From Caldilineaceae bacterium (GTDB lineage Bacteria > Chloroflexota > Anaerolineae > Caldilineales > Caldilineaceae): a DNA stretch of 64,000 nt. Under the pieces are notes generated by a model, which saw only the letters and a program-made list of their open reading frames with translations, was not told where the DNA came from and did no database searches. Location: contig OZ243971.1 in NCBI GenBank assembly GCA_965214715.1, positions 2,256,326-2,320,325 of the forward strand, in the 5' to 3' direction. The position numbers and the translations under genes were made by a program. The first letter of the stretch is position 1; the number at the start of each line of letters is the position of its first letter. Shown in pieces: positions 18,857-45,982 of the stretch.

Positions 18857-19840
18857 CTATGCATAGCGGCCCGTCACGAAAGCCACTCCTGCACCGGCCC
18901 GCACGGCAGGTGTATTGCGGAGCAATACCAGAATGCCGTCCCGATTGCTCTGCACAGTGCAGAGTTCCTGGCCCCATACATCCCGGATGACACCGATACG
19001 CTGTCCTTTTCCGATCTCTTCCAGCAGGGTCACCTCGCTTTCGAACAAGCCGGCACAGGGAGCGGATATGAGAAAGTCCAGGTTACCGTCGCCCCATAGA
19101 TGCAGTGCGGTCTCTGGGAATTCTTCTGCTCCAGAGCGCATTTCCAGCCAGGACATTACATTGGTCACCCCTTGGGCATAGCATTCAATGGCTGCAGGAC
19201 CTGCGCGCCCGCCTCCCGCAGTCTCTGTATACAAACTGGGAATTCCCGCTGCATGTGCTACGGAAATGGTGCGGCCGGGCGGTACTGGAGGGGGATGGCC
19301 CCAAATTACGGGCGCGCCAAAAGCCTTTGCGGCAGCCAGACTTTTCCGCCCGCCCGGCGACTCATCGTGCACATATCCCACCAATGTCGGCATGTCCATG
19401 TCCGGGCCGCCACTGTGCAGATCGATGTAAAAATCCGACTGCAGGATGAGTTGTCGACAGAGTACGTCGGCAATGCGTTGGGTCAGGGTGCCGTCGGGAT
19501 TTCCAGGACATTCACGCGCCAGGTTCAGACCGTCCACCGGACTGGTGCGGGAGTTGGCCTTGAAGGCGGGCATATGGGTTACGGGTACCATCACCACGGT
19601 ACCCTGCAGATGCCGAGGATCCAACCCCTGAAAGATTCGGAGGATGACCCTGACGCCTTCCCATTCATTGCCGTGAACCGCGGCGGTCACCACCAGGACG
19701 GGACTGCGCACACTGCCCGTGGCATGCAAGAGAGGTATCTGCCCGGCACCGCCGCCTGGACGCTCTGCTGGGGCCAGCACAGCACGTCCTTTGGAGCAGA
19801 GTGCCAGGTCGGCCAGGTCGAAGCGGGAAGTCGGGTCCAT
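18857..19840 (-). CDS. succinylglutamate desuccinylase/aspartoacylase (AstE/AspA, M14-like) family zinc hydrolase
   Basis: VVTAAVHGNEWEG zinc motif, NLARECPGNPDGTLTQRIA, DFYIDLHSGG. RBS AGGAGG. Co-oriented downstream of the 20161..21741 gene. Confidence 0.85.
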   Translation of the reverse strand: MDPTSRFDLADLALCSKGRAVLAPAERPGGGAGQIPLLHATGSVRSPVLVVTAAVHGNEWEGVRVILRIFQGLDPRHLQGTVVMVPVTHMPAFKANSRTSPVDGLNLARECPGNPDGTLTQRIADVLCRQLILQSDFYIDLHSGGPDMDMPTLVGYVHDESPGGRKSLAAAKAFGAPVIWGHPPPVPPGRTISVAHAAGIPSLYTETAGGGRAGPAAIECYAQGVTNVMSWLEMRSGAEEFPETALHLWGDGNLDFLISAPCAGLFESEVTLLEEIGKGQRIGVIRDVWGQELCTVQSNRDGILVLLRNTPAVRAGAGVAFVTGRYA

Positions 19841-20160
19841 CGCGTAGCCTCCTGTGGTGTCCAGACCGGGGCGTCAATGCCGACTGGCTCCGCTGCGTGT
19901 TGCCGGTGGGCAGTGAGCGTGCGTTACCGGGACAGAGCGGCCTGCCCTGGCGGACCCAGCCCCGCGGCTGTGCTCGGTGTGGGGCGTCACCCCAAGCAAC
20001 GCTGGCCGGACTGCAGAAACTCCCGGGTCTCTTCTGTCCAGGCGGTGGAAAGGCCTGCCAGGAGCTGGCTCCACAGCCCATGGCCGTCACAGGGCGCTCC
20101 GCTCTTTGGCCGCTGCACTCCCGGCGCCCTACCGCTTGCGCCAGGATGGCAGCGGCACCG

Positions 20161-21741: not shown

Positions 21742-21891
21742 GTTCTGCCCATGGCCCGCCCGGGTGCTCCGCAGGGAGCGTACCGTGATTCATTCTGCAT
21801 GGTCCCGCCTGTGGGGTGAGGCATCCAGTGCACCGGAGCCCATCATACCGCGGAAGCATCCACTCCCGGCACTGCAGCATTGTACCTGTAT

Positions 21892-22100
21892 CCCGATATC
21901 TCCATGGCCCAGACTGGATCCGCCGCGGTCCAGGGGCAGAGCCATCCGGGCCCGGATCGCCTGTACCTCTTTTTTGCCCCTGTACAGATCGATGTAAAAA
22001 TCCGACTGCAGGATGAGTGGCCAACTGAGTGGTCAACAAAGCATGGCGGCAATGCGTTGGGTCAGGGGACTGTCGGGATTTCCAGGACATTGTGCAGGTC
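21892..22100 (-). pseudogene. fragment of a second AstE/AspA-like gene in the inverted-repeat spacer
   Basis: The minus strand reads ...CPGNPDSPLTQRIAAMLC*..LILQSDFYIDL.., matching ECPGNPDGTLTQRIADVLCRQLILQSDFYIDL of the intact gene. A 33-nt stretch is identical to 19418-19450. Contains an in-frame stop and an internal deletion. Confidence 0.6.
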
Positions 22101-22286
22101 CTGGCATATACTGGAGGGCCGCGGCCCAGCGTCCGCGCTGCGGTGCCGGGAGTGGATGCCTCCACGGTATTGGACCGGTAGAACCGCGGGATGCCTCACC
22201 CCACAGGCGGGACCATGCAGAATGAATCACGGTACGCTCCCTGCGGAGCACCCGGGCGGGCCATGGGCAGAACATGGTGGCGCATA

Positions 22287-23936
22287 ATGGGGGGGGGGGG
22301 GGGGCAAGTTGCCCTCCTGGGCTATCTGGGCCTGTGTCTGAACGTCCTTGGCCTGGGCTATCTCTTCGCGGCCGACGCGCCGCAATACAGGATGCTGACG
22401 CAGGAAGACAGGGTGGTGGAGAATCTCACTGCGGTCTGGCTGGGTCTGGCCGGTCTCGTCCTGTTGTTCGCCGCCGGGAGGGAGCGGGGCCTGGGGCGGC
22501 GCGGCGTCTATGTGCTGGGGGGCCTCGCCCTGGTGTTCGGTGCGGGCGAGGAAATCAGTTGGGGGCAACGGCTCTTCGGCTTCGCGACGCCCGGTTTCCT
22601 GCAGGCGGTGAACTACCAGGACGAATTCAACGTGCACAACATCGTCATCGGTGCGCAGGATTGGAATAGAAGAGCCGTCTGGTACGCCACCCTGCTGCTG
22701 TGCACGGCCACCGGCGCCGCTTTCCTGTGCCGCAAGGATACCCTCTGCGGGCTCCCCTTGCCCTCCATGCCCCTGCTGCTGGGCTTTCTGGTGATGCTGG
22801 CCTACTATACGACTTCCCAAAGCGGATTTATTTTGGATCCGAACTTCCTTTTCATGCGCGGGAAACATCTGTTGCTGCTGCTGGCCTGCTACACGCTGTT
22901 TGCCCGACAACCCGGATGGTTCATGCTCATCGCCACCACGGTGGTGCTGGTGCTGGCGGTCTCGTATGTGAACCGGTACAACTCCCGGGCCATCGACCTT
23001 AACGCGATGGTGGAAGTGCAGGAGTATCTGTTCGGTTTTCTTTGCCTGGGCTATGCGCTGGAACTGGGGCTGGGGCCGGGCGGGCGGAACACGGCGCCCG
23101 CGGGTCTGGCCTGGCGGACGGTGTGCGCAGGAGTCGTGGTGGCCAGTGTCGGGTTGATGGGGTTTCAGTATGTCAGGATCCGGACTGAGGCGGCTTTCAT
23201 CGAGAGGACCTATCAGGCGCTCGCGGCCCAGGAGCCAGTCGTCCGCGCCGCATTTGCGGTCTATCTCCGCAAAAACCGGTTGACCTACTTCAAGGAGCCG
23301 TGTGTGCCGGCAGATACCGAGGCGCCGTTCATCCTGCATCTGGTGCCAGCTGATCTGGACAGCCTGCCCCGGGCGCGGCGGGCATACGGCTTCGACAATC
23401 GGGATTTTTACTTCCAGGGAGCGGGCGGTGTGCACGCCGACGGGAAGTGTTTTGTCATCATCCCGCTGCCGAAGTACGACATTGTGCGCATGCGCGTCGG
23501 CCAACGGCTCCCCGCCGAGCAACGGGCCCTCTGGCAAGCGGAATTTGCGGTGCGCCAGACTGCGGCGGCTTTCATCGAGAAGACATCTCAGGTGCTCGCG
23601 GCCCAGGTGCCGGTTGTCCGCGCCGCATTTGCGGTCTATCTCCGCGACAACCGGTTGATCTACTTCAAGGAGCCGTGTGCGCCGGCAGATACCGAGGCGC
23701 CGTTCGTCCTGCATCTGGTGCCGGCCGATCCGGACAGCCTGCCCAAGGCGCGGCGGGCATACGGCTTCGACAATCGGGATTTTCGTTTCCGGGAGGCGGG
23801 CGGGATGCACGCCGACGGGCAGTGCCTTGTGATCATCCCGCTGCCGAAGTACGAGATTGTGCGCATGCGCGTCGGCCAATGGCTCCCCGCCGAGCAACGG
23901 GCTCTCTGGCAAGCGGAATTTGCGGTGCGGGAGTGA
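22287..23936 (+). CDS. polytopic membrane protein with two C-terminal family domains (paralogue B)
   Basis: Intact frame. With G16 it is served by the ATG at 22287 (ATA-ATG-G15) or by in-frame ATGs back to 22191. The ATGGTG start used by paralogue A (22274) is out of frame here. Confidence 0.8.
   Translation: MGGGGGQVALLGYLGLCLNVLGLGYLFAADAPQYRMLTQEDRVVENLTAVWLGLAGLVLLFAAGRERGLGRRGVYVLGGLALVFGAGEEISWGQRLFGFATPGFLQAVNYQDEFNVHNIVIGAQDWNRRAVWYATLLLCTATGAAFLCRKDTLCGLPLPSMPLLLGFLVMLAYYTTSQSGFILDPNFLFMRGKHLLLLLACYTLFARQPGWFMLIATTVVLVLAVSYVNRYNSRAIDLNAMVEVQEYLFGFLCLGYALELGLGPGGRNTAPAGLAWRTVCAGVVVASVGLMGFQYVRIRTEAAFIERTYQALAAQEPVVRAAFAVYLRKNRLTYFKEPCVPADTEAPFILHLVPADLDSLPRARRAYGFDNRDFYFQGAGGVHADGKCFVIIPLPKYDIVRMRVGQRLPAEQRALWQAEFAVRQTAAAFIEKTSQVLAAQVPVVRAAFAVYLRDNRLIYFKEPCAPADTEAPFVLHLVPADPDSLPKARRAYGFDNRDFRFREAGGMHADGQCLVIIPLPKYEIVRMRVGQWLPAEQRALWQAEFAVRE
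22289..22304 (+). repeat. G16 homopolymer at the start of paralogue B
   Basis: Counted directly. One G longer than the mirror copy. Confidence 0.95.
23188..23933 (+). repeat. in-gene tandem duplication, two units of about 375 bp encoding the C-terminal domain
   Basis: AAFIERTYQALAAQEPVVRAAFAVY...AEFAVRQ is followed by TAAAFIEKTSQVLAAQVPVVRAAFAVY...AEFAVRE. Confidence 0.85.
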
Positions 23937-23946
23937 CGGTGCCGCT

Positions 23947-24146
23947 GGATCCTCAGCATCTGCAGGATACCATGGTGATCGTGGCGTAACCCATATGCCC
24001 GCCTTTAAGGCCAATCCCCGCACCAGTCCGGTGGAGACGCCTGCACCTGGCGCGGGCCCGATATCCCCATGGCCCAGACTGGATCCGCCGCGGCCCAAGG
24101 GAGAGCCACCCGGGCCCGGATCGCCTGCACCTCTCTTTGCCCCTGT
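23947..24146. pseudogene. mosaic AstE/AspA-like gene fragments
   Basis: 23947-24035 is the reverse complement of 19533-19622 of the intact gene (DPQHLQDTMVIVA*..HMPAFKANPRTSPV). 24057-24146 repeats the 21892-21983 piece in direct orientation. Confidence 0.55.
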
Positions 24147-24252
24147 GCTGAGAAGGAATACAGGGCCGGAACAGGGCGCGTACAGACTTCCGCGGCCTCT
24201 TGTCTCTCTGCGCGCCTTGCGGCGGGACCGGAACTCGCGGGTGCCGCCTGGG

Positions 24253-30131: not shown

Positions 30132-31139
30132 CTATGTCGGCAGGACAAGGACATAGACCAGGCACTCCCCCATCAGTACCCGGGGAAACGTGCGCAGGAA
30201 CATCACGCGTCCGGTTTCTTCCGCCCGCACTTCGGCCAATACCGTACCGTCGGGATGGCGTACCTGACCGAGCATATCCCCGGTGGCGACAGGCTCCCAG
30301 AGCTCTACGGCAGGCACGAAAAGTCCCGAATAGGGACTGGGATAATTCACCTGCAGGTGACCGGCCTCTTCGCCCAATGTCTGCAGGCTGAACTCGGGTT
30401 CGGCGGTGGGATAGGAGCCGTCCGTGATACCCAGGAAAGTCAGAATGTTGCGAATACCCTGTACGGCAGCAGTCCGCTGCGCGGGGCGCAATCGGCCTTC
30501 GCCCCGATTCTCGACGTAAATGGCAGGCACGCCCTTGATCCGGGCCGCGGACAGCGTGCGGCCGGACAGCGCCTCGGTGCCCCAGACCAGATCAAAGCCG
30601 AACGCGATGGCGGCCGCGTGCAAACGAGCCCCCACAGCACCGCCTTGGACCTGATAGCCCGCCAGCTCCTTGCAGGCATACAGGTTGCCGCCGGCATGCA
30701 TCTCAAGCAGGAAGTCAGCCTGGACCACCAGATGTTCCTGAAACACATGCGCGATGCGCTCGGTAGGAAACCCGTGGGCACTGCCCGGGAATATGCGAGC
30801 CAGATTCAAGTGATCCCAACCGCCTTCCCGGGTGCCCCGGGCAAAGGCAGGCCCGTTCACCATGGGAATACCGAAGAATGTGCCCTCCATGTGCACCGGG
30901 TCCAAGGCGGAGAATACATCCTGAATGGCCACCGGCCCTTCATATTCGTCGCCGTGTACCAGGCCCGTCACCATGCAGACGGGACCGGGCCGCGCGCCGC
31001 GGGCGAGCAGGACGGGACAATAGAGCGGTTCCCCCGAAGGCAAAACATTCAAAACCAGATGCAGGCGGGTCTTGGTGCCCAAGGCAAAATCGGCAACCCT
31101 GAATTCAGAATAGAGAACCTGTAAGGCATCTGTCAACAT
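30132..31139 (-). CDS. succinylglutamate desuccinylase/aspartoacylase (AstE/AspA) family zinc hydrolase, second intact paralogue
   Basis: GLVHGDEYEG zinc motif, NLARIFPG, LLEMHAGG. RBS AAGGAGAG before ATG 31139. Confidence 0.85.
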   Translation of the reverse strand: MLTDALQVLYSEFRVADFALGTKTRLHLVLNVLPSGEPLYCPVLLARGARPGPVCMVTGLVHGDEYEGPVAIQDVFSALDPVHMEGTFFGIPMVNGPAFARGTREGGWDHLNLARIFPGSAHGFPTERIAHVFQEHLVVQADFLLEMHAGGNLYACKELAGYQVQGGAVGARLHAAAIAFGFDLVWGTEALSGRTLSAARIKGVPAIYVENRGEGRLRPAQRTAAVQGIRNILTFLGITDGSYPTAEPEFSLQTLGEEAGHLQVNYPSPYSGLFVPAVELWEPVATGDMLGQVRHPDGTVLAEVRAEETGRVMFLRTFPRVLMGECLVYVLVLPT

Positions 31140-35070: not shown

Positions 35071-35662
35071 TTCTGTTCAAGTCAAAGTCAAAACGCATCC
35101 GGTCAATACAACCCTCTCTCTGCGACCGGCCGCGCGGGCAGCCAAGCATACAGGGCAATAGGAAAAGGTGCACAGTGACAGACGAAGTTTCATTCTAACA
35201 CCTCCCTGATTCAAACGCCCTGCCTTCCCAGGCAATCGCCAGGTCACGAATTGAAGCCGCAAGGGACATACCGGAACAGGTGCCATACACAGCAAAAAGC
35301 CCATATGAATCCCAAAACGCCGGGAGGCTCCTGGCGGTGCTTGCGGTCGACATGCTCGGCCTCGCGGTCTGTGCCTGCATAGGCTGTCAATGCCATTGGT
35401 CAGCATCGCGGAGTTCAGACGTGATCTCCAAGCCGGGTTTGCAACCTGGCAGCTTTGCGACGAAATACCCGCACAAAATCGGGCAGGAAAAACAAATGCC
35501 TCCAGGCCGGTCATATTGCGGCTGGCCTGGAGGCAATCCTGCCTTTTTGACGACTTTGCGATGATTTGGGATTACTCGCAGTCAAATACCCTGACTTCCT
35601 GTTTTTAAGTGATAAAATTGGCATAAAATAACATAAACAGAAACAATATCAGGGAAAGTGGC

Positions 35663-36940
35663 ATGCTGATCGAATTTTCCGTAGCAAACTTCAAGTCCAT
35701 CAAGGAAGAGGCCTGCTTGAACATGACGGCCGGACCTGGAAGAGAGCACAGGAAAATACATCTGGTGGTGCCTACACTGACGGCGAGAAGTCAACCTTCC
35801 CCCTTGGTCCGTACGGCGGTGATTTTCGGCGCCAATGCAGCGGGAAAGTCAAATTTGCTGGATGCCTTGAGGGTCATGAAGAACATCGTCCGCACATCCA
35901 GCCAAGGTCCTGCGGAACTTCCCGTAATCCCCTTCAAGTTTGATTTTGACAGCAAGAACCAAAGCACTGTGTTTGAAGTCAAGTGTATTGTCCAGGGAAT
36001 CCGTTTTATCAATATGGTTTTAGTGTCACCAAGGACAGGGTGCATGACGAATGGCTCTTTGCCTGGCCGCGGGGAAGAGTGCAAACCTGGTTTGAACGCG
36101 ACGGTCCCCACTGGAAATTGGGAGACAAGCTGACCGGCGACAAGGAGCTCTGGAAACGCACTACCCGCCCGGATGCCTTGTTCCTTTTCCACGGCCGTGT
36201 CTCTGAACAGCGAACAGTTGCGGCCACTGTATGACTGGTTTCACCATACAGTGCAGTATCCCACACCCCACGGCTGGACAGATGCGCTCTCACTTAAATT
36301 CTCACTTAAATATTGTCAAGACGAGCGCAAGCAGGCAGTCATTGATTTCTTGCATTCTGCAGATCTGGGCATTGCAGACCTGCGCATTACAAAAAAAGAA
36401 TTTTCGCCTGACATGCTCCCTGCTACCATATCCGTGGAAATGAAGGAAGAACTGACAAGAGGACTGGCGAGCAAGATGATCGTGGAGGATCTTTTTCTAA
36501 GACATGACACGGGCCTTGGCTACTCCACGGAACTGGATATGAAAGCGGAGTCGGCCGGCACGCAAAAGATCTTTTCGCTGGCGGGTCCTTGGCTTGAGGG
36601 CTTAAGCAATGGAAATGTGCTTGTAATCGACGAATTGGACAACAGCCTGCATCCCCAGCTGGTCGCGTTTTTGGTGGAGCGGTTCCACGACCCGGCAGTG
36701 AATACAAAAGGAGCCCAGCTCATATTTTCCACTCACGACGCTGCCCTCCTGAGTCAGGACAGATTCCGCAGAGATCAGATCTGGTTTTGTGAACGCAACA
36801 CATGACAGGAAACCCATCTGTATCCCTTGACGGATTTCCGTCCTCGCAAGGATCTGGAAAATCTTGAGCGCTCCTGTCTGGCAGGGCGATACGGAGCTCT
36901 GCCTTACACGCGACCGACAACCGTCCTGCATAGCCATTGA
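35663..36940 (+). pseudogene. AAA_21/abortive-infection-type ATPase: two frameshifts and one in-frame TGA
   Basis: Walker A IFGANAAGKSNLLDAL, YQYGFSVTKDRVHDEWLF in a second frame, VLVIDELDNSLHP...IFSTHD back in the first frame. TGA at 36803-36805 precedes the conserved tail LAGRYGALPY. Confidence 0.75.
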
Positions 36941-36943
36941 ACT

Positions 36944-37108
36944 ATGGCGAGACGCCCACCCCGTCCCCAGAGCAGAAGGCGGCAACCAGTCCGCGAAGCA
37001 TACGCACGCGTCCTCATTCTCTGCGAAGGGAAGAAAACCGAGGTGACCTATTTCAATGATCTCGTGGCACATTACAGTCTGAGCACAGCCAGCATAATAA
37101 GAGTGTAA
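36944..37108 (+). pseudogene. RloB-like protein, N-terminal 54 codons only
   Basis: ARVLILCEGKKTEVTYFNDL matches the RloB-like (Toprim-type) N-terminal motif. The frame ends at ...ASIIRV*, where high-G+C DNA begins. Confidence 0.6.
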
Positions 37109-37153
37109 AATAGGGATACTCCGGTAGTCCGGGGTTGGCCTGGCACCTATCCG

Positions 37154-37230
37154 GGGCGGATAGCTCAGTTGGTTAGAGCACTTCGTTTACACCGAAGGGG
37201 CCGGGGGTTCAAGTCCCTCTCTGCCCACCA
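37154..37230 (+). tRNA. tRNA-Val (anticodon TAC), CCA encoded
   Basis: Acceptor GGGCGGA/TCTGCCC, D stem GCTC/GAGC, anticodon stem CTTCG/CGAAG with loop TTTACAC, T arm GGGGG-TTCAAGT-CCCTC, then A-CCA. Confidence 0.9.
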
Positions 37231-37641
37231 GGCCATACACAAGCCAGCACCTTCGCGTCCAGACTCAAGTTAGGGGGGCCGGACTGAGCGCTTCCCCTGC
37301 ACTACTCCCGAATGTCCCCGTCATGCGGGGGAAGCTTTGATCTCCACTCTGCGCCCGCAGAATGTCTGCAGGGCTTCCTTCCCAAGTCGGCGGCGCGGCC
37401 GGGAAATTCAGAAATCCAGTCACGAACACGTACACTGTCGTATAGCCTGCATATACGTAGTGCCAGGCGCAACGATCAGCCATGAAGCCAAAGCGGACCT
37501 TACCATGGACGCCGAGTTGCCAAGCGGTATGCCTACGCAAACAGGCGCTCAGGGAGGCAGTGGAAAAGGGCCGCAGGCAAAGTCTGACATGAGTGCACCG
37601 CATCGTCTTTGGCGTTTATTTGCGTCCATATATTCTGATGA

Positions 37642-37652
37642 GGGGGGGGGGG
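37642..37652 (+). repeat. G11 homopolymer immediately after an ATG (37638), 100 nt upstream of the annotated start of paralogue C
   Basis: Counted directly. Context CTG ATG A G11 ATATGCGC. Confidence 0.95.
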
Positions 37653-37752
37653 ATATGCGCTCTCCCCGGCTGCACAATGCCCTGTTCGTCCTGTTTGTGG
37701 GCAGCATTCTGGTGTACAGACGCCGGCCAGCGGTCGCCACCCCGGACGGGAT

Positions 37753-39942
37753 ATGGCGCTGGGCCTGGCCTGCGTACCCTGGCTGGCCCTGCTGGGCTGG
37801 ATGACCGCCCTGACCTGGTTTCTGACGGATGATGCCTTCATCAGTTTCCGGTACGTGCGCAACCTGCTGGAAGGCCACGGTCTCGTCTTCAACCCCGGCG
37901 AGCGCGTCGAGGGGTACTCCAACTTTCTGTGGATCCTGGAACTGGCCGCCATCTGGCGGGTGGGGGGCGTGGAGCCCGAAGTTGCATCCCGGTGGCTGTC
38001 GGTCGTCTGCACCGTGGGCACCCTCGGCACCCTGCTGTGGTGGATGGCGCACCAGCCTGCGGTGGGACACCGCGGGCTGGTGATCTGGATGGCGCTGGGA
38101 CTGGTGTGCAGCAGCGCGACGTTCGCCGTGTGGACCTCGGGAGGCGGCCTGGAAACGCGGCAGTTCAGCCTGTTTGTGGTGGTGGCCGTGGTGTGCCTGG
38201 GCCTCTACCGTCACCACCCCGCGGGGCTGCTGGCCGCGTCGCTCAGTCTGGCGGGGGCGGCCCTGACCCGGCCCGAGGGGCCGCTGCTGGCTCTCTGCTG
38301 TTTTGGCTGGTTCCTCGGCCAACGGATGGCGGTGGCCGGCCGGGAGGGGCTGCACCGGGAGGGCCGGCGGGCCCTCCTCTGTCTGGTCGGACCGTGCGTG
38401 GCCCTGGTCGGGGCCCATTTCCTGTTCCGGTATGCGTACTATGGCGAGTGGCTGCCCAACACCTACCATGCCAAGCACGTCCGGGCGTGGTACGAGTCCG
38501 GCTTCCGCTACCTGTGGGCGGCGGCCCTGGAGACGGGGCTGTACCTGTGGCTGCCCCTGGCCTACATGGCCGCGCGGGCGCAGTGGCGCCAGCACCGGGA
38601 TGGCACGTTCGCGCTGGGGCTGGGGCTGGTGGGTACGCACATGGCCTATGTGATGCACATGGGGGGCGACCATTTCGAGTACCGTCCGCTGGACTTCTAC
38701 TGGCCCCTGCTGGCCTTCCCCGCCGCCACGGGTCTGGCGGGCCTGGCCGCGCGGATTGTGACCCGGGACCCGGGGCGGCCCCGCGCGCCCTTCCGGCGTT
38801 GGGGGGGGAGTGTGGACACAGGCGCCCGGGCCATGATGCTGATGCTCTTCGCGCCGGTCTGGTTCTATGCCAGTGCCCTGCAGGGGCTCCTGTTATATGA
38901 GGGGAGCCGGATCCATGAGTACATTCCGAGACTGCACATTGAGCTCGATCATGCAAATGCCCGGTGGTTACGGGTCGCCCCCGGCATGCCCATGCTGACC
39001 GCGGTTTCCAACGATCTGCGCCGCTTGATGGCGGTGCATAAGGTCGCCTCCCCTTTCACGCTACACCGCGCGTTCGCCAACCAGCAGATCCGAAGATGGA
39101 AGCCATACTACGTGCATATGGAGAGGGGCGTGATGCCGGATGATGCCCTGATGGCCGGCGGTGCCCTCGGCATTCGCTTCTACTACCTGCCGGACCTGGC
39201 GGTCATTGATCTCCACGGCTTGACCGACGCGACGATCGCGCGCCATCCGGTCACGATCCCCAACCACCAGCGCGCCATGGCCCATGACCGCAGCCCACCG
39301 GCCGGGTACCTGGAGGCCCGGGGCGTCAATTTCACGGTATACCCGGCGGCGGCCAGCGCCTCGGCCGCGTTGCGCCGCGCGGAGTACGCCCTGCCCGTGG
39401 GACCCGACCTGTGGATGCCGTTCGATGCCCCGGAGCGACAGTGGGTCCTCGATCGCTTTGCCCGCCAGAACCTGGTGACCTATATATGCCTGACAGGCCC
39501 TCCGGACCCGGCCGCGGGGAGCGCGTGGGGTGTGGACTGTGCGCCAGAGGACCGGATCGTGTGGGCCGGGGCGGACGCCTGGCGATCCCGTCTGCTCCGG
39601 GACCGCCGGCCCGTCATCCAGTCCGCCTGGGACGTGTATCACCTGGGCGACCGTCTGGTCTACGTCAGGGAACCCTGCGGACCGGCAGATGTGGCTGCCT
39701 CCCCCTTCTTCCTGCATGTGGTCCCGGTCCATCCCCAGGACCTCCCCGTCCCGCGCCGGTCCTATGGCTTTGACAACCTTGACTTCCACTTCCCGCAATA
39801 CGGCGTGATGTTCCGCGGATGGTGCCTGGCGGAGGTCCCGCTCCCGGCCTACCGGATCCGGAGCCTCCGCACCGGCCAGTATGTACGCCGGGAGGACAGT
39901 TTCCAGCATGTCTGGGAAGGCGAATTCCGCCATGTCCCATAG
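37753..39942 (+). CDS. GT-C-like polytopic membrane protein (DDAFISFRY...NPGERVEGYSNFLW loop) with one C-terminal family domain (paralogue C)
   Basis: 729-aa intact frame from the internal ATG at 37753. The frame stays open upstream to the TGA at 37639-37641. 96-97% identical to the next copy by eye. Glycosyltransferase assignment rests on a recalled motif only. Confidence 0.8.
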   Translation: MALGLACVPWLALLGWMTALTWFLTDDAFISFRYVRNLLEGHGLVFNPGERVEGYSNFLWILELAAIWRVGGVEPEVASRWLSVVCTVGTLGTLLWWMAHQPAVGHRGLVIWMALGLVCSSATFAVWTSGGGLETRQFSLFVVVAVVCLGLYRHHPAGLLAASLSLAGAALTRPEGPLLALCCFGWFLGQRMAVAGREGLHREGRRALLCLVGPCVALVGAHFLFRYAYYGEWLPNTYHAKHVRAWYESGFRYLWAAALETGLYLWLPLAYMAARAQWRQHRDGTFALGLGLVGTHMAYVMHMGGDHFEYRPLDFYWPLLAFPAATGLAGLAARIVTRDPGRPRAPFRRWGGSVDTGARAMMLMLFAPVWFYASALQGLLLYEGSRIHEYIPRLHIELDHANARWLRVAPGMPMLTAVSNDLRRLMAVHKVASPFTLHRAFANQQIRRWKPYYVHMERGVMPDDALMAGGALGIRFYYLPDLAVIDLHGLTDATIARHPVTIPNHQRAMAHDRSPPAGYLEARGVNFTVYPAAASASAALRRAEYALPVGPDLWMPFDAPERQWVLDRFARQNLVTYICLTGPPDPAAGSAWGVDCAPEDRIVWAGADAWRSRLLRDRRPVIQSAWDVYHLGDRLVYVREPCGPADVAASPFFLHVVPVHPQDLPVPRRSYGFDNLDFHFPQYGVMFRGWCLAEVPLPAYRIRSLRTGQYVRREDSFQHVWEGEFRHVP

Positions 39943-42188
39943 CCAGCGAGGCGTACAGACGCCGACCAGCGGTCGCCACCCCGGACGGGGCCTGGTGCTG
40001 GGCCTGGCCTGCGTACCCTGGCTGGCCCTGCTGGGCTGGATGACCGCCCTGACCTGGTTTCTGACCGATGATGCCTTCATCAGCTTCCGGTACGTGCGCA
40101 ACCTGCTGGAAGGCCACGGTCTCGTCTTCAACCCCGGCGAGCGCGTCGAGGGGTACTCCAACTTTCTGTGGATCCTGGAACTGGCCGCCATCTGGCGGGT
40201 GGGGGGTGTGGGGCCCGAAGTTGCGTCCCGGTGGCTGTCGGTCGTCTGCACCGTGGGCACCCTCGGCACCCTGCTGTGGTGGATGGCGCGCCAGCCCGCG
40301 GTGCCCCACCGCAGGCTGGTGACCTGGATGGCGCTGGGACTGGTGTGCAGCAGCGCGACGTTCGCCGTGTGGACCTCGGGGGGCGGCCTGGAAACGCGGC
40401 AGTTCAGCCTGTTTGTGGTGGTGGCCGTGGTGTGCCTGGGCCTCTACCGGCACCACCCCGCGGGGCTGCTGGCCGCGTCGCTCAGTCTGGCGGGGGCGGC
40501 CCTGACCCGGCCCGAGGGGCCGCTGCTGGCTCTCTGCTGTTTTGGCTGGTTCCTCGGCCAACGGATGGCGGTGGCCGGCCGGGAGGGGCTGCACCGGGAG
40601 GGCTGGCGGGCCCTCCTCTGTCTGGTTGGACCGTGCGTGGCCCTGGTCGGGGCCCATTTCCTGTTCCGGTATGCGTACTATGGCGAGTGGCTGCCCAACA
40701 CCTACCATGCCAAGCACGTCCGGGCGTGGTACGAGTCCGGCTTCCGCTACCTGTGGGCGGCGGCCCTGGAGACGGGGCTGTACCTGTGGCTGCCCCTGGC
40801 CTACATGGCCGCGCGGGCGCAGTGGCGCCAGCACCGGGATGGCACGTTCGCGCTGGTGCTGCTTCTGCTTGGTACGCACATGGCGTATGTGATGCACATG
40901 GGGGGCGACCATTTCGAGTACCGTCCGCTGGACTTCTACTGGCCCCTGCTGGCCTTCCCCGCCGCCACGGGTCTGGCGGGCCTGGCCGCGCGGATTGTGA
41001 CCCGGGACCCGGGGCGGCCCCGCGCGCCCTTCCGGCGTTGGGGGGGGAGTGTGGACACAGGCACCCGGGCCATGATGCTGATGCTCTTCGCGCCGGTCTG
41101 GTTCTATGCCAGTGCCCTGCAGGGGCTCCTGTTATATGAGGGGAGCCGGATCCATGAGTACATTCCGAGACTGCACATTGAGCTCGATCATGCAAATGCC
41201 CGGTGGTTACGGGTCGCCCCCGGCATGCCCATGCTGACTGCGGTTTCCAACGATCTGCGCCGCCTGATGGCGGCGCATCAGGTCGCCGCCCCTTTCACGC
41301 TACACCGCGCGTTGGCCAACCAGCAGATCCGAAGATGGAAGCCATACTACGTGCATATGGAGAGGGGCGTGATGCCAGATGATGCCCTGATGGCCGGCGG
41401 TGCCCTCGGCATTCGCTTCTACTACCTGCCGGACCTGGCGGCCATTGATCGGTTCGGCTTGACCGACGCGACGATCGCGCGCCATCCGGTCACGACCCCC
41501 AACCACCAGCGCAGGATGGCCCATGACCGCAGCCCACCGGCCGGGTACCTGGAGGCCCGGGGCGTCAATATCACGGTATACCCGGCGGCGGCCAGCGCCT
41601 CGGCCGCGTTGCGCCGCGCGGAGTACGCCCTGTCCGTGGGGCCCGACCTGTGGATGCCGTTCGATGCCCCGGAGCGACAGTGGGTCCTCGATCGCTTTGC
41701 CCGCCAGAACCTGGTGACCTATATATGCCTGACAGGCCCTCCGGACCCGGCCGCGGGGAGCGCGTGGGGCGTGGACTGTGCACCTGAGGACCGCATCGTG
41801 TGGTCCGGGGCGGACGCCTGGCGGTCCCGTCTGCTCCGGGACCGCCGGCCCGTCATCCAGTCCGCCTGGGACGTGTATCACCTGGGCGACCGTCTGGTCT
41901 ACGTCAGGGAACCCTGCGGACCGGCAGATGTGGCTACCCCCCCCCCCATTCTTCCTGCATGTGGTCCCGGTCCACCCCCAGGACCTCCCTGCCCCGCGCC
42001 GGGCCTATGGCTTTGACAACCGCGACTTCCGCTTCCCGCAATACGGCATGATGTTCCCCGGGGGGTGCCTGGCGGAGGTCCCGCTCCCGGCCTACCGGAT
42101 CCGGAGCCTCCGCACCGGCCAGTATGTACGCCGGGAGGACGACGGTTTCCAGCATGTCTGGGAAGGCGAATTCCGCCCTGCCCCATAG
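39932..42188 (+). pseudogene. GT-C-like membrane protein, paralogue D, frame broken at a C11 run (phase-OFF state or pseudogene)
   Basis: ATG 39932 overlaps the stop of paralogue C (ATGTCCCATAG). The frame runs to 42016. The C-terminal domain (FFLHVVPVHPQDLPAPRRAYGFDNRDF...EGEFRPAP*) continues in the +1 frame to 42188. Confidence 0.75.
41937..41947 (+). repeat. C11 homopolymer inside paralogue D
   Basis: GCT A C11 A TTC TTC CTG, compared with GCT GCC TCC CCC TTC TTC CTG in paralogue C. Confidence 0.95.
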
Positions 42189-42259
42189 GCAGCGAGGAGG
42201 AAGGAAGCCGGCCAGCGGTCGCCATCCCGGACGGGGCCTGGCGCTGGGCCTGGCCTGCG

Positions 42260-42596
42260 GGCCCTGGGAGGTGGTGCACGGCGGTCCTGCACCCAAAGCG
42301 CTGGTGCAAAAGGCCAGGCAATTGCGCAAGCAGGAAACCCGCCGGGGAGAACAATACGACAGAGTCTATTGCGTTTTTGATCGCGACGACCATGAAAGCT
42401 TTGAGGCCGCCAGTGCCTTCCTGATTATTGCAAAGGGATGCAGGGACTGTTCAAGACCCTCAACAGCAGCCTGGAAAGGGCCCTGCGGAATGCCGTCAAC
42501 GTGGCAAAAGACGCAAGCACAACAGGTGATCCCAACCCCTCCACGGAAGTCCACGAGCTGGTGAGATTTCTGCAGTCCCTTAAACCTGCTGCATGA
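42260..42596 (+). pseudogene. RloB-like protein, remaining fragments (internal deletion and frameshift)
   Basis: EVVHGGPAPKALVQKARQL...YDRVYCVFDRDDHESFEAA, then in another frame (42438..42596) ...DPNPSTEVHELVRFLQSL*, resembling the RloB-like middle and C-terminal motifs. Confidence 0.55.
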
Positions 42597-42940
42597 AGAA
42601 AAATACACTCATCGAAAACAGGAATTTGCGGTATTCCTGTAAAGGGGGACAACCCAGTTCCTCTGTTTCAGAAGAATGGCGGGACCGGAGTTGTTTTGGC
42701 CAGGACCTGTGACAAATCCACGGCATCAGGGGATTGATACAGGGTTGCTGCACCTACAATCATGGCTGTAGGTCTGCGACTGACCGGTGCCATGGCACCC
42801 ACCTGGAAGCCGTGCAGAGCGCAAGCTGTTCCCTGACAGGGACAGATACGTTAATATCGGCATCAGGTATGGCTGATATGAAATCACATGATTGATAACA
42901 AAGCGCGACTTTGTGCCAAGTCGCGCCAGGAGGAAGACCT

Positions 42941-44677
42941 ATGCAGACCACACGACCCCCTGTTTGCAGCCGGGGCTACCTCATATCCACCGATCACTAT
43001 CTGGCCACGATGGCGGGATTCAAAATCCTGGAACAGGGCGGCAACGCCGCAGACGCAGGCGTGGCTGCCGGTCTATGCCTCAATGTAGTAGTGCCGGAAT
43101 CTGCCCACTTTGGCGGTGTGGCACCCATCATTTACGGATCTGGCGACGGCGGGCCTGTCGAAACCATCAGCGGCCTGGGTCGCTGGCCCAAGGCGGCCAG
43201 CATCCGGCACTTCATGCAGCATCACGGCGGGGACATGCCCGAGGGCATTCCGCGGACGGTCACGCCGGCAGCACCCGATGCATGGCTGAGCGCCTTGGCC
43301 CGATGGGGCACCATGACCTTTGAGGAGGTCGTACAGCCCGCCCTGAAACTGGCGCAGGACGGCCGGCCTGTAGATGACCGATTTCACCGGGCCCTGCAGG
43401 CACCGTCCATTCGGGCCTATCCCACCACTGCTGCCACCTTTCTGCCTGCCGGAGTGCCCCTGCCACCGGGCCAACTCTTCATGCAGCCCGACTTGGCCAA
43501 CACGTTCCAGCGCATGATCGAGGCCGAGCACCGGAGTTGGGGCAACCGTAGGCAAGGAATTCGAGGGGCCCGCGACCTGATCTACCGGGGCGAGATTGCA
43601 CGGGAAATCGCTGCCTTTCATGCGCAGGCAGGGAGCCTGTTGACCTATGAGGATCTGTGCCATTTCACAGTGCTGGTGGAAGCGCCGGAGATTATTCGCT
43701 ACCGAGATCTCGATGTGCTCAGCTGTGGTCCCTGGTGCCAGGGGCCTTCGCTCCTGATGGCGCTGCGCATATTGGAGCATCTGGAACTCAGGACAATGGG
43801 GCACAATTCCGCCGATTATCTGCATGTGCTGCTGGAGACGCTCAAGTTGGTATTTGCAGACCGTGAGGCCTATTTTGGGGATCCCGGTTTTGTCAGGGTG
43901 CCTATGCAGGGCCTGCTGCATCCAGACTATGCACAGACGCGCCGGAGTCGCATTGATCGGCACGCAGCGGCGCCCCGCATGCCTGCCTGCGGGGAACCTG
44001 GACCTTTCGAGTCCAATCAGTCCGGTCCTCACGACCGCGTATCGCAGGGTGTCGCAGATTCTCCCCTTGACGCGCGGAAAACCCCATGGGAGAGCGACAC
44101 CAGTTATCTTTGCGTGGTTGACGGGGAAGGCAATGCCTTCTCCGCCACACCTTCCGACGGCATTGGAGGGGGGGCTGTCGTACCCGGTCTAGGCTTCCCT
44201 ATTTCACATAGGGGAACCCAAAGCTGGCTGGATCCAGACCATGCTTCTGCTCTTCAACCCGGAAAACGACCTCGACTGACCCCCAATCCGGCCTTGGTCA
44301 TGCAGAACGGTCAGCCATACATGCCGTTTGGGTGTCCCGGGGGCGATGCACAGGTACAGGGCATGCTCCAGGTTTTTCTGAACGTCGTGGAGTTCGGCAT
44401 GGATATTCAAAGCGCGATTGAGGCGCCGCGGGTCATCTCGCACAGTTTCCCCAATTCATTTTGGCCCCATATCAGCCTGGACGGTGCAGTTACGGTGGAG
44501 ACGCGCATCCCCGAAAACGTCAGGTCCAACCTGCAAGGCAAGGGACACATCTTGAATGAAGATGGAGACTGGAGTGGGCAGGTGAGCCGAGTGTGCGCCA
44601 TCACCATCGATCCCAAGTCGCGATTGCGCACAGGAGGTGCGGATCCTCGCACCACTGCATATGCAGCAGGATGGTGA
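42941..44677 (+). CDS. ggt: gamma-glutamyltranspeptidase family protein
   Basis: Autoprocessing/catalytic Thr context DTSYLCVVDGEGNAFSATPS and C-terminal GADPRTTAYAAGW. RBS AGGAGGAAG before ATG 42941. Confidence 0.9.
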   Translation: MQTTRPPVCSRGYLISTDHYLATMAGFKILEQGGNAADAGVAAGLCLNVVVPESAHFGGVAPIIYGSGDGGPVETISGLGRWPKAASIRHFMQHHGGDMPEGIPRTVTPAAPDAWLSALARWGTMTFEEVVQPALKLAQDGRPVDDRFHRALQAPSIRAYPTTAATFLPAGVPLPPGQLFMQPDLANTFQRMIEAEHRSWGNRRQGIRGARDLIYRGEIAREIAAFHAQAGSLLTYEDLCHFTVLVEAPEIIRYRDLDVLSCGPWCQGPSLLMALRILEHLELRTMGHNSADYLHVLLETLKLVFADREAYFGDPGFVRVPMQGLLHPDYAQTRRSRIDRHAAAPRMPACGEPGPFESNQSGPHDRVSQGVADSPLDARKTPWESDTSYLCVVDGEGNAFSATPSDGIGGGAVVPGLGFPISHRGTQSWLDPDHASALQPGKRPRLTPNPALVMQNGQPYMPFGCPGGDAQVQGMLQVFLNVVEFGMDIQSAIEAPRVISHSFPNSFWPHISLDGAVTVETRIPENVRSNLQGKGHILNEDGDWSGQVSRVCAITIDPKSRLRTGGADPRTTAYAAGW

Positions 44678-44867: not shown

Positions 44868-45806
44868 ATGACCGCCGGACATTGCGCCGCCGCGATCCCC
44901 GGCTGAAGCCCCGAGCACGGGACCGGGTGGAAATTGTCGGTTCTTTGCCTAGGGCTGGACCGTACCCGCCGGGCCGCGCCTCTGGATATCTGTCTGGCCA
45001 CGGTGCGCCGTTGGATCCACTAGTGGATAGTTAAAAACTGCAAAGTCCCACATTTTGGAGGACAAGCCGCGCCTGTGAGCTGCTGCTGGGACTCCTCATT
45101 TCCCCTGGCAGCGCGAATCGCCTCCTGCACTCTGGCGTCATCGTGCAACCTACCCTTGCGAGCCGGCAGGCGACAGTGGCCTATCCGCGCGCTCCCCAGT
45201 AGCACGTCTGGCACTGCGCCATCGTACTGGCCACGGCCGAGGGCGTGGGCCCGCAGGCCCTCATGCGCCGCACCGGCAAGGCCAAGCAGAGGTGTGGTGC
45301 TGGCAGGAACGGTTCATGCAGGCGAGCGGGGACGGCAGGCTGCGCGATGCCCCGCGGCCTCTGGACAACCTCCCACGCCGGAGGGCCAGGTGCAGATGAT
45401 GCTGATCCGGACCTTGGGACCACCCCCCGCCGGCGCGTCCCAGTGGACTACCCGCTGCATGGCGCAGGAGTTTCGGGCCTTTCGGACTCACCTGGCCCTA
45501 CAGGTCCCCCAGCAGCCGGTGCACCTGATCCTGGACAACTATTCCACGTACAAGACCCAGAGTGTCCCCGAAGGGCTGGCAGCGCACCCGCGCTGGCACT
45601 TTCATTTCACGTCTTCTCCCGTTCCTGGAGGAACGCCGTGGAGAGCCTTTGCGCGCAGCCTGACGTGGGGTTGCTGTCGCCTCCCTGGAGACCTTGGCGC
45701 ATGCCATGCATCAGTGTCTGGCGGCCCATAACATCCAGACCGCGCGCCCGTTCGTGTGGCATCGGGATCCCGAGACGACCATTGCGGCTCGCAAAAGAGG
45801 ATACCC
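44868..45806 (+). mobile_element. degraded IS630-family transposase gene (frameshifts and a large internal deletion)
   Basis: PAGASQWTTRCMAQEF, HLILDNYSTYKTQ...HPRWHFHFT, SWRNAVESL and HNIQTARPFVWHRDPE occur in three different frames. Confidence 0.6.
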
Positions 45807-45813
45807 TTGGTTA

Positions 45814-45982
45814 GGGACTTATATACCTAAGTACACAGACTCGGATATATCCTGTTCACGGGTCATCAGGGTGCCCAACGGCAACGCCCTTCGCCGTCCC
45901 ATGGGCCGTGGAGTACCATGTTGCACTCCGGTACAGCGGAGGTGTACCACACATGCCGCGTGTACTTAGGTATGTAATTCCC
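45814..45982. mobile_element. MITE-like element, copy B (169 bp)
   Basis: Terminal inverted repeats GGGACTTATATACCTAAGTACAC / GTGTACTTAGGTATGTAATTCCC. Perfect 8-bp direct repeat CTTGGTTA on both sides. Confidence 0.7.

What the first reader, a model, noticed from the sequence alone, without database searches (positions are those of the whole stretch)
36944..42596. A 5.15-kb block (tRNA-Val plus the tandem membrane-gene array) sits inside an rloB-like gene with almost no loss of target sequence
- The RloB-like frame stops at ...YSLSTASIIRV* (37108), where lower-G+C DNA gives way to high-G+C DNA.
- The frame resumes at about 42266 as EVVHGGPAPKALVQKARQLRKQ...YDRVYCVFDRDD in the same orientation. 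At most a few codons are missing across the junction.
- In between lie tRNA-Val, about 480 bp of unique leader with the G11 tract, two 2.24-kb gene units, and the first about 65 bp of a third unit.
- The reading frame of that third unit is fused in frame to the rloB remainder (GRGLALGLAC|GPWEVVHGG).
- No transposase, integrase or terminal inverted repeats are visible. The only shared junction sequence I see is GGCCTGGC (37133-37140 and 42247-42259).
- Together with the AstE locus, this is the second case where this gene family sits in the wreck of another gene.
- Possible explanations: the cassette is mobile by an unrecognised route, or it is a hot spot for illegitimate recombination.
Basis: partly seen in the sequence, partly recalled or inferred. 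Interest (0 to 1): 0.7.

Follow-up and report, generated by a model that had tools for sequence, protein, structure and literature searches.

The report
Chromosomal fragment inserted in dead defence gene
A spare copy of a tRNA-Val gene with a cell-envelope glycosyltransferase gene sits exactly between two codons of a decaying anti-phage gene in a Caldilineaceae bacterium, and the junctions look like ordinary illegitimate recombination rather than a new mobile element.

Summary
An AbiL-type defence operon (abiLi AAA_21 ATPase plus abiLii/RloB Toprim gene) is split between codons 51 and 52 of rloB by 5,171 bp (37097-42267). No target codon is lost.

The insert is a patchwork copy of the lineage's native tRNA-Val/type-A/GT-C neighbourhood. 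In order it holds:
- 57 bp of tRNA-Val upstream sequence
- tRNA-Val(TAC)
- about 358 bp of intergenic DNA
- a 42-codon stub of a "type-A" membrane gene
- two AftB-like GT-C glycosyltransferase units
- a 72-bp stub of a further unit (42196-42267)

A second genome about 96% identical (L042) has identical junctions but only one unit. The junctions are therefore not assembly joins. The window's tandem copy arose later, by unequal crossing-over between about 82-bp repeats.

A more distant relative (L043) lacks the whole island. Two contigs of the same species (L087, L088) carry a 4.39-kb microhomology deletion that removes abiLi, the rloB 5' piece and the tRNA.

I found no transposase, integrase, terminal repeats, target duplication or att repeats.

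Best reading: a one-off illegitimate insertion followed by decay. One thing stays unexplained. An independent rearrangement in another genome (L086) breaks at almost the same point upstream of tRNA-Val.

Interest is low to moderate.

The parts
35213..35662 (.). Left flank of the accessory island. It has no counterpart in the empty-site relative L043. It contains position 35392, the left breakpoint of the 4.39-kb deletion seen in L087 and L088.
35663..36940 (+). abiLi (AAA_21 ABC-ATPase) pseudogene. It has a +2 frameshift near 35995, a +1 frameshift near 36180 and a TGA at 36803-36805. The L042 orthologue is intact (423 aa).
   Evidence: Pfam AAA_21; PADLOC AbiLi 3.5e-98 on the L042 orthologue; frames; L042 sequence
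36944..37096 (+). abiLii/rloB 5' fragment, codons 1-51 (...YSLSTASI). The ORF runs on into the insert to the stop at 37106-37108.
37097..37153 (+). Left end of the insert: 57 bp of tRNA-Val upstream sequence. It is about 60% identical to the native tRNA-Val upstream region and has a conserved -10-like box (TAAAAT, 37106-37111).
37154..37230 (+). Second-copy tRNA-Val(TAC). It matches the native-locus tRNA-Val of the sister genome at 74 of 77 bases, and all 3 differences are at unpaired positions. It is deleted in L087 and L088, so it is dispensable.
37231..37588 (+). Intergenic leader. Its length matches the native tRNA-Val to type-A gene spacer (358 bp here, 350 bp in L086). No sequence similarity is detectable beyond the first 22 or so bp.
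37589..37710 (+). 5' stub of about 42 codons of a 'type-A' membrane gene (MSAPHRLWR...LHNALFVLFVGSILVY), joined to repeat r1. It contains the G11 tract at 37642-37652, which lies in a 32-bp stretch absent from L042.
37711..39949 (+). Unit 1: repeat r1 (about 37701-37782) plus an intact 729-aa AftB-like GT-C glycosyltransferase gene (37753-39942) with a C-terminal domain of about 115 aa.
39950..42195 (+). Unit 2, 96.8% identical to unit 1. Its repeat r2 is an r3/r1 hybrid. The gene is frameshifted at a C11 tract (41937-41947), which puts the C-terminal domain (41946-42188) out of frame.
42196..42267 (+). Stub r3: the inter-unit spacer plus the first 30 nt of a further, more diverged unit. It ends exactly where rloB resumes. 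The orthologous stub is present in L042.
42268..42596 (+). abiLii/rloB 3' remainder. It starts at codon 52 (EVVHGGPAPKALV...), has an out-of-frame internal deletion of about 50 codons near 42410-42430, and then continues as LPDYCKGMQGLF...SLKPAA*.
42597..42924 (.). Right flank of the island. Homology to the empty-site relative L043 resumes at 42925, just upstream of ggt (42941-44677).

Best explanation
Between the ABC-transporter SBP gene and ggt, this Caldilineaceae lineage carries a 7.7-kb accessory island. It began as an AbiL-type defence operon (abiLi ATPase plus abiLii/RloB Toprim).

Insertion (inferred mechanism). Before the window and L042 lineages split, a fragment of about 2.9 kb was inserted between codons 51 and 52 of rloB. 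The junctions have no repeats, no target duplication and no loss, which fits end-joining-type capture of a linear fragment at a break. The fragment came from a paralogous copy of the lineage's own tRNA-Val / type-A / GT-C cell-envelope glycan neighbourhood.

Structure of the fragment (shown). It already bore internal deletion scars: a type-A 5' stub joined to the inter-unit repeat, and a 72-bp stub (spacer plus the first 30 nt) of the next GT-C unit at its right end.

Later history.
- The operon decayed: an internal rloB deletion in both genomes, and frameshifts plus a nonsense codon in the window's abiLi (shown).
- In the window lineage the GT-C gene was duplicated in tandem by unequal crossing-over between the about 82-bp repeats on either side of it (shown by the hybrid repeat).
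- The copies exchange sequence with other array copies in the genome by gene conversion (inferred).
- In some strains a 4.39-kb microhomology deletion removed abiLi, the rloB 5' piece, the tRNA and most of unit 1 (shown).

The block is ordinary chromosomal DNA caught in a recombination-prone, dispensable locus. It is not a dedicated mobile cassette.
For: - Zero-codon split of rloB against 11 intact homologues.
- AbiLi/AbiLii identity.
- L042 is about 96% identical and an independent assembly. It has identical junctions, one unit and the same stub, an intact abiLi, and the same internal rloB deletion.
- The window's r2 is an r3/r1 hybrid, as unequal crossing-over predicts.
- L043 has SBP and ggt about 560 bp apart, with no island and no tRNA.
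- Native loci L082 and L086 read FtsK, tRNA-Val(TAC), (island), type-A, GT-C, UbiA, DprE2-like, DprE1-like. The insert keeps the same order and orientation, the same spacing between the tRNA and the type-A start (358 vs 350 bp), 74/77 tRNA identity, a homologous type-A N-terminus, and a homologous junction from C-terminal domain through the repeat to the GT-C start.
- No TIR, TSD or att repeats. The insert has no room for a mobility gene.
- L087 and L088 are 99.6-99.9% identical in the flank and join 35392 to 39782 at a TG microhomology.
- The window genome's copies are 95-97% identical to each other over the first ~420 alignment columns (lower in the C-terminal part) but 92-93% to the L042 orthologue there. 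The unit is 93.7% identical between the two genomes, while the adjacent rloB pieces are 99-100%.
- dN/dS is about 0.4-0.5, so the GT-C genes are not simply neutral junk.
Against: - The joining mechanism itself is not shown. No donor locus and no intact target allele with close DNA identity could be retrieved.
- Loss-free insertion is more typical of site-specific or transposase chemistry than of random end joining.
- In L086 an independent duplication junction lies within 0-4 nt of the same position (-53) upstream of tRNA-Val. Its other breakpoint is also in the 5' part of a GT-C gene, and both partner sites carry GTGGTGC next to the break. This recurrence is unexpected for random breaks.
- Whether this lineage has Ku/LigD was not checked.
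Confidence: 0.62

Rival explanations
1. The block is a non-autonomous mobile module with a defined left end about 53 nt upstream of tRNA-Val and a variable right end in the GT-C gene. A recombinase or transposase encoded elsewhere moves it, by an unrecognised or one-ended route. Integration is conservative, which would explain the loss-free junctions.
For: - Loss-free insertion exactly between two codons.
- L086 carries a module of the same composition (tRNA-Val, type-A, GT-C 5' fragment) whose junction to the next tRNA-Val copy starts at the same AGAGTGTA(A/C)AAT sequence.
- Both partner sites contain GTGGTGC next to the break.
- The insert's GT-C is richer in G+C (68%) than the native paralogue (61%) and the genome (60%), which is compatible with foreign origin.
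Against: - Only one insertion event is documented. The window and L042 share it by descent.
- The right ends differ: +30 nt in the window and roughly +450 nt in L086.
- The ends show no inverted repeats, hairpins or direct repeats above chance.
- The module is visibly a patchwork of truncated genes.
- The L086 structure is equally well explained by a tandem duplication followed by island insertion.
- A minimal promoter requirement for a functional tRNA copy would push any retained left breakpoint towards the same place.
- The tRNA pattern has no hit in the viral or metagenome collections.
Confidence: 0.2
2. A tRNA-targeting tyrosine integrase, from one of the islands that sit at the native tRNA-Val locus, excised tRNA-Val plus downstream genes aberrantly as a circle. 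It then integrated the circle at a secondary site in rloB.
For: - The native tRNA-Val loci are island integration sites. L082 has a PIN/PhdYeFM pair and a DDE fragment directly after the tRNA, and L086 has a partial third tRNA copy typical of an att repeat.
- Conservative site-specific recombination gives loss-free junctions.
Against: - No copy of the tRNA 3' end or any core repeat lies at either junction.
- The junctions are 57 nt upstream of the tRNA and inside a GT-C coding sequence, not in the tRNA.
- No integrase is present in the island or in the native loci examined.
Confidence: 0.07
3. The junctions or the tandem array are assembly artefacts (chimeric joins or a mis-expanded repeat).
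For: Repeats and homopolymer tracts (G11, C11) are error-prone. The short-read contigs L087 and L088 break inside the repeat.
Against: - L042, a different genome (about 4% divergent) and an independent assembly, has both junctions base for base.
- Units 1 and 2 differ at 3.2% of sites and carry different repeat variants, so they are two real copies.
- After the deletion junction L088 matches the unit 1 to unit 2 transition of the window at 100%.
Confidence: 0.02
4. The insertion was selected for function. For example, a variant tRNA-Val could buffer cells against a tRNA-cleaving Toprim effector, by analogy with the phage tRNA that neutralises PARIS. Or inactivating a toxic rloB could have been favoured.
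For: - AbiL belongs with PARIS among ABC-ATPase plus TOPRIM defence systems (PMC11464382).
- AbiLi also hits AriA.
- The insert tRNA differs from the native copy only at 3 unpaired positions.
- abiLi stays intact in L042 although rloB is broken.
Against: - No evidence that RloB nucleases cut tRNA-Val.
- Strains of the same species have deleted the tRNA.
- The operon is decaying as a whole.
- A gene-disrupting position adds nothing to a tRNA's function.
Confidence: 0.04

Closest known systems
AbiL abortive-infection system (AbiLi AAA_21 ABC-ATPase plus AbiLii/RloB Toprim), an OLD/PARIS-related defence module
   Same: - Two-gene order, ATPase then RloB.
- PADLOC AbiLi 3.5e-98 on the L042 orthologue, and AbiLii 3.3e-14 on the rejoined rloB.
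- Pfam AAA_21 and RloB.
- The closest intact pair (L084) sits beside an MmeI-type restriction-modification gene in a defence island.
   Different: Here it is a wreck. rloB is split by 5.17 kb and has an internal out-of-frame deletion. abiLi has two frameshifts and a stop codon, although it is intact in L042.
AftB-like GT-C arabinofuranosyltransferases that use polyprenyl-phospho-arabinose (mycobacterial AftB, PDB 9dlf)
   Same: - N-terminal membrane domain with the DDxF..F.Y motif (DDAFISFRY).
- Weak but specific hits to AftB (NCBIfam NF041481 at 2.3e-8; PDB 9dlf at 1.7e-5 over residues 3-270).
- Paralogues sit beside UbiA, GtrA, DprE1-like and DprE2-like genes.
   Different: - The score is far below the equivalog cut-off (32.6 vs 1050 bits) and there is no Pfam model.
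- A C-terminal domain of about 115 aa, with no Pfam match, is shared with other membrane proteins.
- The family occurs in tandem arrays of up to 9 genes in these Caldilineaceae genomes.
- This copy is not next to the donor-sugar genes.
tRNA-linked genomic islands and integrative elements
   Same: A tRNA gene lies at one end of a block of accessory DNA. The native tRNA-Val of this lineage is indeed an island integration site.
   Different: - The tRNA is inside the inserted segment, 57 nt from its end.
- There is no integrase.
- There is no duplicated tRNA 3' end.
- The target is a protein-coding gene.
Gene amplification by unequal crossing-over between flanking direct repeats, with concerted evolution of tandem paralogues
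   Same: - The single-copy relative has the layout r, gene, r. The window has r, gene, r(hybrid), gene, r.
- Copies within one genome are more alike than orthologues are.
   Different: Nothing unusual. This explains the copy number, not the original insertion.
Illegitimate (end-joining or microhomology) capture of chromosomal fragments, and microhomology deletions
   Same: - Junctions without repeats.
- A patchwork of truncated genes.
- A 2-nt microhomology deletion in sister strains.
- A duplication plus inversion at the astE locus.
   Different: Complete preservation of the target sequence is uncommon for such events. A near-identical breakpoint recurs in L086.

Membership tests
AbiL defence system | AbiLi-type AAA_21 ABC-ATPase gene | tested here: met
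   Pfam AAA_21 on both halves. PADLOC AbiLi 3.5e-98 on the 93%-identical L042 orthologue. By homology only: the window copy is a pseudogene.
AbiL defence system | Adjacent intact AbiLii/RloB (Toprim) gene | tested here: not met
   Homology is present. The gene is split by a 5,171-bp insert and carries an out-of-frame internal deletion.
AbiL defence system | Protection against phage | not testable with these tools
   Needs an experiment. The gene state predicts no activity.
AftB-like GT-C arabinofuranosyltransferase | Sequence membership in the curated AftB family | tested here: not met
   NF041481 scores 32.6 bits against a cut-off of 1050. PDB AftB matches at E 1.7e-5 over the N-terminal 270 aa only. 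A distant relative, not an equivalog.
AftB-like GT-C arabinofuranosyltransferase | Conserved acidic DD motif in the first extracytoplasmic loop of a polytopic N-terminal domain | tested here: met
   DDAFISFRY at residues 26-34, conserved in all homologues inspected. Topology was not modelled.
AftB-like GT-C arabinofuranosyltransferase | Linkage to synthesis of the polyprenyl-phospho-arabinose donor (UbiA, DprE1 and DprE2 types) | tested here: inconclusive
   Met for the paralogues in L002, L082, L085 and L086. Not met for the copy in the window.
tRNA-targeting integrative island | Integrase gene in the element | tested here: not met
   The insert holds only the tRNA, about 480 bp of leader and the GT-C units.
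tRNA-targeting integrative island | Direct repeat of the tRNA 3' end (attL/attR) at the element borders | tested here: not met
   With up to 3 mismatches, the 28-nt tRNA 3'-end probe matches only the tRNA itself. The 17-nt probe gives two further 3-mismatch hits (10197, 31816), at chance level and far from the borders.
IS element or transposon (including MITE-like and IS200/IS605-, IS91-, IS110-like elements) | Transposase, or defined terminal inverted repeats or subterminal structures | tested here: not met
   No transposase ORF. The best inverted match between the ends scores 7, against a shuffle 95th percentile of 9.
IS element or transposon (including MITE-like and IS200/IS605-, IS91-, IS110-like elements) | Target-site duplication | tested here: not met
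   The target reads ATA|GAG with nothing duplicated.
Tandem duplication by unequal crossing-over | Direct repeats flank the unit in the single-copy state, and the new junction carries a hybrid repeat | tested here: met
   L042 has r1, gene, r3. The window's r2 has the r3-type 5' part and the r1-type 3' part.

The most novel reading that the evidence does not exclude
The tRNA-Val-led segment is a member of an unrecognised class of non-autonomous modules in Caldilineaceae. It would have a fixed left end about 53 nt upstream of tRNA-Val (AGAGTGTAnAAT) and would integrate conservatively, perhaps next to GTGGTGC-containing sites. In this way it would spread cell-surface glycosyltransferase genes together with a spare tRNA.
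Probability: 0.12. Interest if true: 0.7.

Novelty: new member of a known kind. Interest (0 to 1): 0.3.

Why it matters
The main value is as a worked example of how an accessory defence locus dies in an uncultured Caldilineaceae lineage whose relatives are MAGs of sponge-symbiont type. Four states of one locus are now in hand: empty, inserted, amplified and deleted.

The example also shows how surface-glycan glycosyltransferase genes are copied, amplified and homogenised.

It flags a very large, unannotated AftB-like GT-C family. The family has more than 4,000 database relatives, no Pfam model and arrays of up to nine genes. It is probably a major source of cell-envelope variation in these bacteria.

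Only if the recurrent breakpoint upstream of tRNA-Val proved to be a true recombination site would this point to a new mobility mechanism.

Tried and rejected
1. Terminal inverted or direct repeats at the insert ends: none above shuffle level.
2. att-like copies of the tRNA 3' end in the window: none beyond chance.
3. A 21-nt imperfect inverted repeat flanking the abiL operon (35585-35605 and 42615-42635). It is not significant: 19 of 300 shuffles score as well.
4. Exact look-ups of window proteins. The window genome is not retrievable, so the other GT-C copies in the same genome (P0168, P0165) could not be inspected.
5. Searches for the tRNA-Val sequence, full and core patterns, in metagenome and viral contigs: 0 hits.
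6. Search for a close intact rloB allele. The best hit in 5.8 billion proteins is 48% identical overall, or 60% over aligned columns. No pre-insertion allele exists in the databases.
7. Defining the island borders against L043. Only weak homology reaches 35212, and it resumes at 42925. The intergenic DNA is too diverged for base-level borders.
8. The idea that the two rloB pieces come from two truncated operon copies. Rejected, because the pieces abut at the same codon boundary with nothing lost or duplicated.
9. Rfam scan of 35-43 kb: only the tRNA passes threshold.
10. A template-switch model with microhomology at both junctions: no usable microhomology at the right junction.
Full report
**Observation.**
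The region was read directly.
- An AAA_21 ATPase gene starts at 35663. In the window it is broken by a +2 frameshift near 35995, a +1 frameshift near 36180, and a TGA at 36803-36805. These were defined by comparison with the intact orthologue in L042.
- An RloB-like ORF follows at 36944 and stops at 37108.
- ARAGORN and Rfam find tRNA-Val(TAC) at 37154-37230.
- BLAST of the region on itself gives two units, 37711-39949 and 39950-42195. They are 96-97% identical. A third-unit stub runs to 42267 (BLAST similarity from 42204).
- Pfam places the three RloB pieces at profile positions 1-24, 41-81 and 158-195.

**The split of rloB.**
I searched the rejoined pieces against 5.8 billion proteins and aligned 11 intact homologues of 207-215 aa.
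- The homologues read ...STAN(V/I) followed directly by (E/K/V)VV(H/G)GG.
- The window reads ...STASI, then the insert, then EVVHGG. A codon-by-codon comparison with the closest intact gene (L084) confirms this.
- So the insert is 37097-42267 (5,171 bp) and not one target codon is missing.
- rloB has a second lesion, an out-of-frame deletion of about 50 codons near 42410-42430.
- PADLOC identifies the pair as AbiLi/AbiLii. AbiL is grouped with PARIS and OLD among ABC-ATPase plus TOPRIM defence systems (PMC11464382).

**What the cargo is.**
The 729-aa protein has no Pfam match. It shows weak, specific similarity to AftB arabinofuranosyltransferase (NCBIfam 2.3e-8, far below cut-off; PDB 9dlf 1.7e-5). 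It has more than 4,000 database relatives.
- Relatives form arrays of six (L001) to nine (L083) tandem genes.
- Others sit with UbiA, GtrA, DprE1-like and DprE2-like genes.
- It is therefore a distant AftB-like GT-C glycosyltransferase of the cell envelope, not an AftB equivalog.

**Organism and comparative states of the locus.**
A scan with the neighbouring GGT protein shows a Caldilineaceae (Chloroflexota) lineage. Its relatives are uncultured MAGs recovered alongside Poribacteria and Latescibacterota.

*L042* (OZ243985.1) is about 96% identical across 30.6-48 kb. It has the same island with base-identical junctions, but with these differences:
- abiLi is intact.
- There is a single GT-C unit flanked by r1 and the same diverged stub.
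- The 32 bp that hold the G11 tract are missing.

This rules out assembly joins. It also shows that the insertion and the internal rloB deletion predate the split of the two lineages.

*The window's tandem copy.* The window's middle repeat r2 has the r3-type 5' part and the r1-type 3' part. That is the signature of unequal crossing-over between the flanking repeats.

*L043* (SBP 94% identical in protein) has SBP and ggt about 560 bp apart, with no island and no tRNA.

*L087 and L088* are short-read contigs from two other samples that carry the identical SBP protein. They are 99.6% and 99.94% identical to the window up to 35392. They then continue at 39782 across a TG microhomology, and L088 is 100% identical to the window for the next 328 bp. 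This is a 4.39-kb deletion of abiLi, the rloB 5' piece, tRNA-Val, the leader and most of unit 1. The insert-borne tRNA is therefore dispensable, and the island is being eroded by illegitimate deletions.

**Origin of the insert.**
The L042 genome has a second tRNA-Val(TAC) at its native locus (L082). The order there is FtsK, tRNA-Val, a small island (PIN/PhdYeFM, DDE fragment), a 'type-A' membrane gene, a GT-C gene (P0052, 68-70% identical to unit 1), UbiA, DprE2-like and DprE1-like.
- The two tRNAs differ at 3 of 77 positions, all unpaired.
- Flanking similarity is 60-70% and runs from about -53 to +25, including a -10-like box.
- In L086, the orthologous locus of another Caldilineaceae, the type-A gene starts 350 bp after the tRNA. 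In the window, an ORF with the same N-terminus (PHRLWR...LHNALFVLFxGxILxY) starts 358 bp after the tRNA and breaks off after about 42 codons at repeat r1.
- The junction from unit 1's C-terminal domain through the repeat to the GT-C start is also collinear with the native junction between type-A and GT-C (72% identity).

The insert is thus a condensed, scarred paralogue of the native neighbourhood of tRNA-Val, type-A and GT-C. It is ordinary chromosomal DNA.

**Evolution of the copies.**
- Within the window genome the family has at least two further copies of 90% identity or more (P0168, P0165). Each is preceded by the end of another unit, so they lie in at least one other array.
- Over the first ~420 alignment columns, copies within this genome are 95-97% identical but only 92-93% identical to the L042 orthologue; C-terminal identities are lower.
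- The unit is 93.7% identical between the two genomes, while the adjacent rloB pieces are 99-100%.
- This indicates gene conversion among copies.
- dN/dS of 0.4-0.5 shows some purifying selection.

**Mechanism.**
- No transposase or integrase fits in the insert.
- The ends have no inverted or direct repeats above chance.
- No tRNA 3' repeat lies at the insert borders.
- The inverted repeat flanking the operon is not significant.
- The region shows several other illegitimate events (the internal rloB deletion, the join of the type-A stub to r1, the 4.39-kb microhomology deletion) plus the unequal crossover between the repeats. Nearby, the astE locus carries an inverted segmental duplication.

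I therefore favour a single capture of a chromosomal fragment at a break in rloB, followed by decay. The joining chemistry is inferred, not shown.

**Unexplained.**
L086 contains a recent duplication (the copies are 91-98% identical). Its junction joins a GT-C 5' fragment to a second tRNA-Val copy beginning at AGAGTGTACAAT, 53 nt upstream of the tRNA. The window's insert begins ATA-AGAGTGTAAAAT at -57/-53. Both partner sites carry GTGGTGC beside the break.

This could reflect a preferred recombination site. It could instead reflect retention of only those copies that keep a minimal tRNA promoter. It could also be coincidence. It keeps the 'mobile module' reading alive at low probability.

**Verdict.**
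The 'illegitimate recombination hot spot' interpretation is supported. The 'mobile cassette' interpretation is not supported, but it is not excluded. The comparison with the AstE locus is not apt. Novelty is modest.

Noticed in passing
window 18857-24150: The astE locus holds an intact astE (18857-19840, minus strand) followed by two inverted, 80-90% identical membrane-protein genes (20161-21741 minus strand; 22191-23936 plus strand). Each ends in two copies of the same C-terminal domain of about 115 aa that the GT-C units carry. Fragments of a second astE lie at 21976-22091 (minus strand) and 23946-24054 (plus strand). They correspond to adjacent parts of astE (19409-19512 and 19515-19623). 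This points to a segmental duplication of astE plus the membrane gene followed by an inversion, not to an insertion into astE.
   Followed up: partly
window 37642-37652 (G11), 41937-41947 (C11), G8 run near 38870; L042 about 8998-9010 (C12); L082 about 8400 (poly-C, PPPPPPP); L087 gene 851-2080: Long G or C homopolymer tracts sit inside or just upstream of these glycosyltransferase genes. Their lengths differ between copies and strains, and this switches the C-terminal domain or the whole distal half out of frame. Unit 2, the L042 copy, P0165 and the L087 copy are frameshifted; unit 1 and P0168 are in frame. This could be phase variation of surface glycans or homopolymer assembly error.
   Followed up: partly
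L001 5351-18668; L083 1-22970; window 37753-42188: A very large family of AftB-like GT-C membrane proteins (more than 4,000 relatives at E of 1e-5 or better) has no Pfam model. It occurs in arrays of 6-9 tandem genes in these Caldilineaceae genomes. In L001 the array alternates with a second 'type-A' GT-C-like family (DDSFYYF motif). Both families end in the same C-terminal domain of about 115 aa, which has no Pfam match.
   Followed up: partly
window 42941-44677 vs L042 10001-11734: The ggt gene is far more diverged between the window and L042 (88% nucleotide identity, dS 0.43) than the genes on the other side of the island (SBP 98.7%, dS 0.03). The rloB pieces are 99-100% identical. This suggests a recombination boundary, or allelic replacement of ggt, right at the edge of the island.
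   Followed up: partly
L086 1174-10510: The native locus of another Caldilineaceae carries two full copies of tRNA-Val(TAC) and one partial copy. It also has a duplicated module of type-A gene plus GT-C 5' fragment. The partial tRNA (5391-5531) looks like an att repeat of an island that now lacks an integrase.
   Followed up: partly
window 45075-45814; L042 12014-12884: A weak remnant of a DDE_3 (IS630-type) transposase (E 0.0013) lies downstream of ggt. At the same place there is a difference between the two genomes: about 870 bp in L042 against about 130 bp in the window.
   Followed up: no
window 35498-35534: A near-perfect 37-nt palindrome (ctccaggccggtcatattgcggctggcctggag) lies about 130 nt upstream of abiLi and is conserved in L042. 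Function unknown. Its Rfam hits are far below threshold.
   Followed up: no
window 30150-31109: A second, intact astE/aspA-family paralogue (36% identical to the one at 18857-19840) lies next to the ABC-transporter genes.
   Followed up: no
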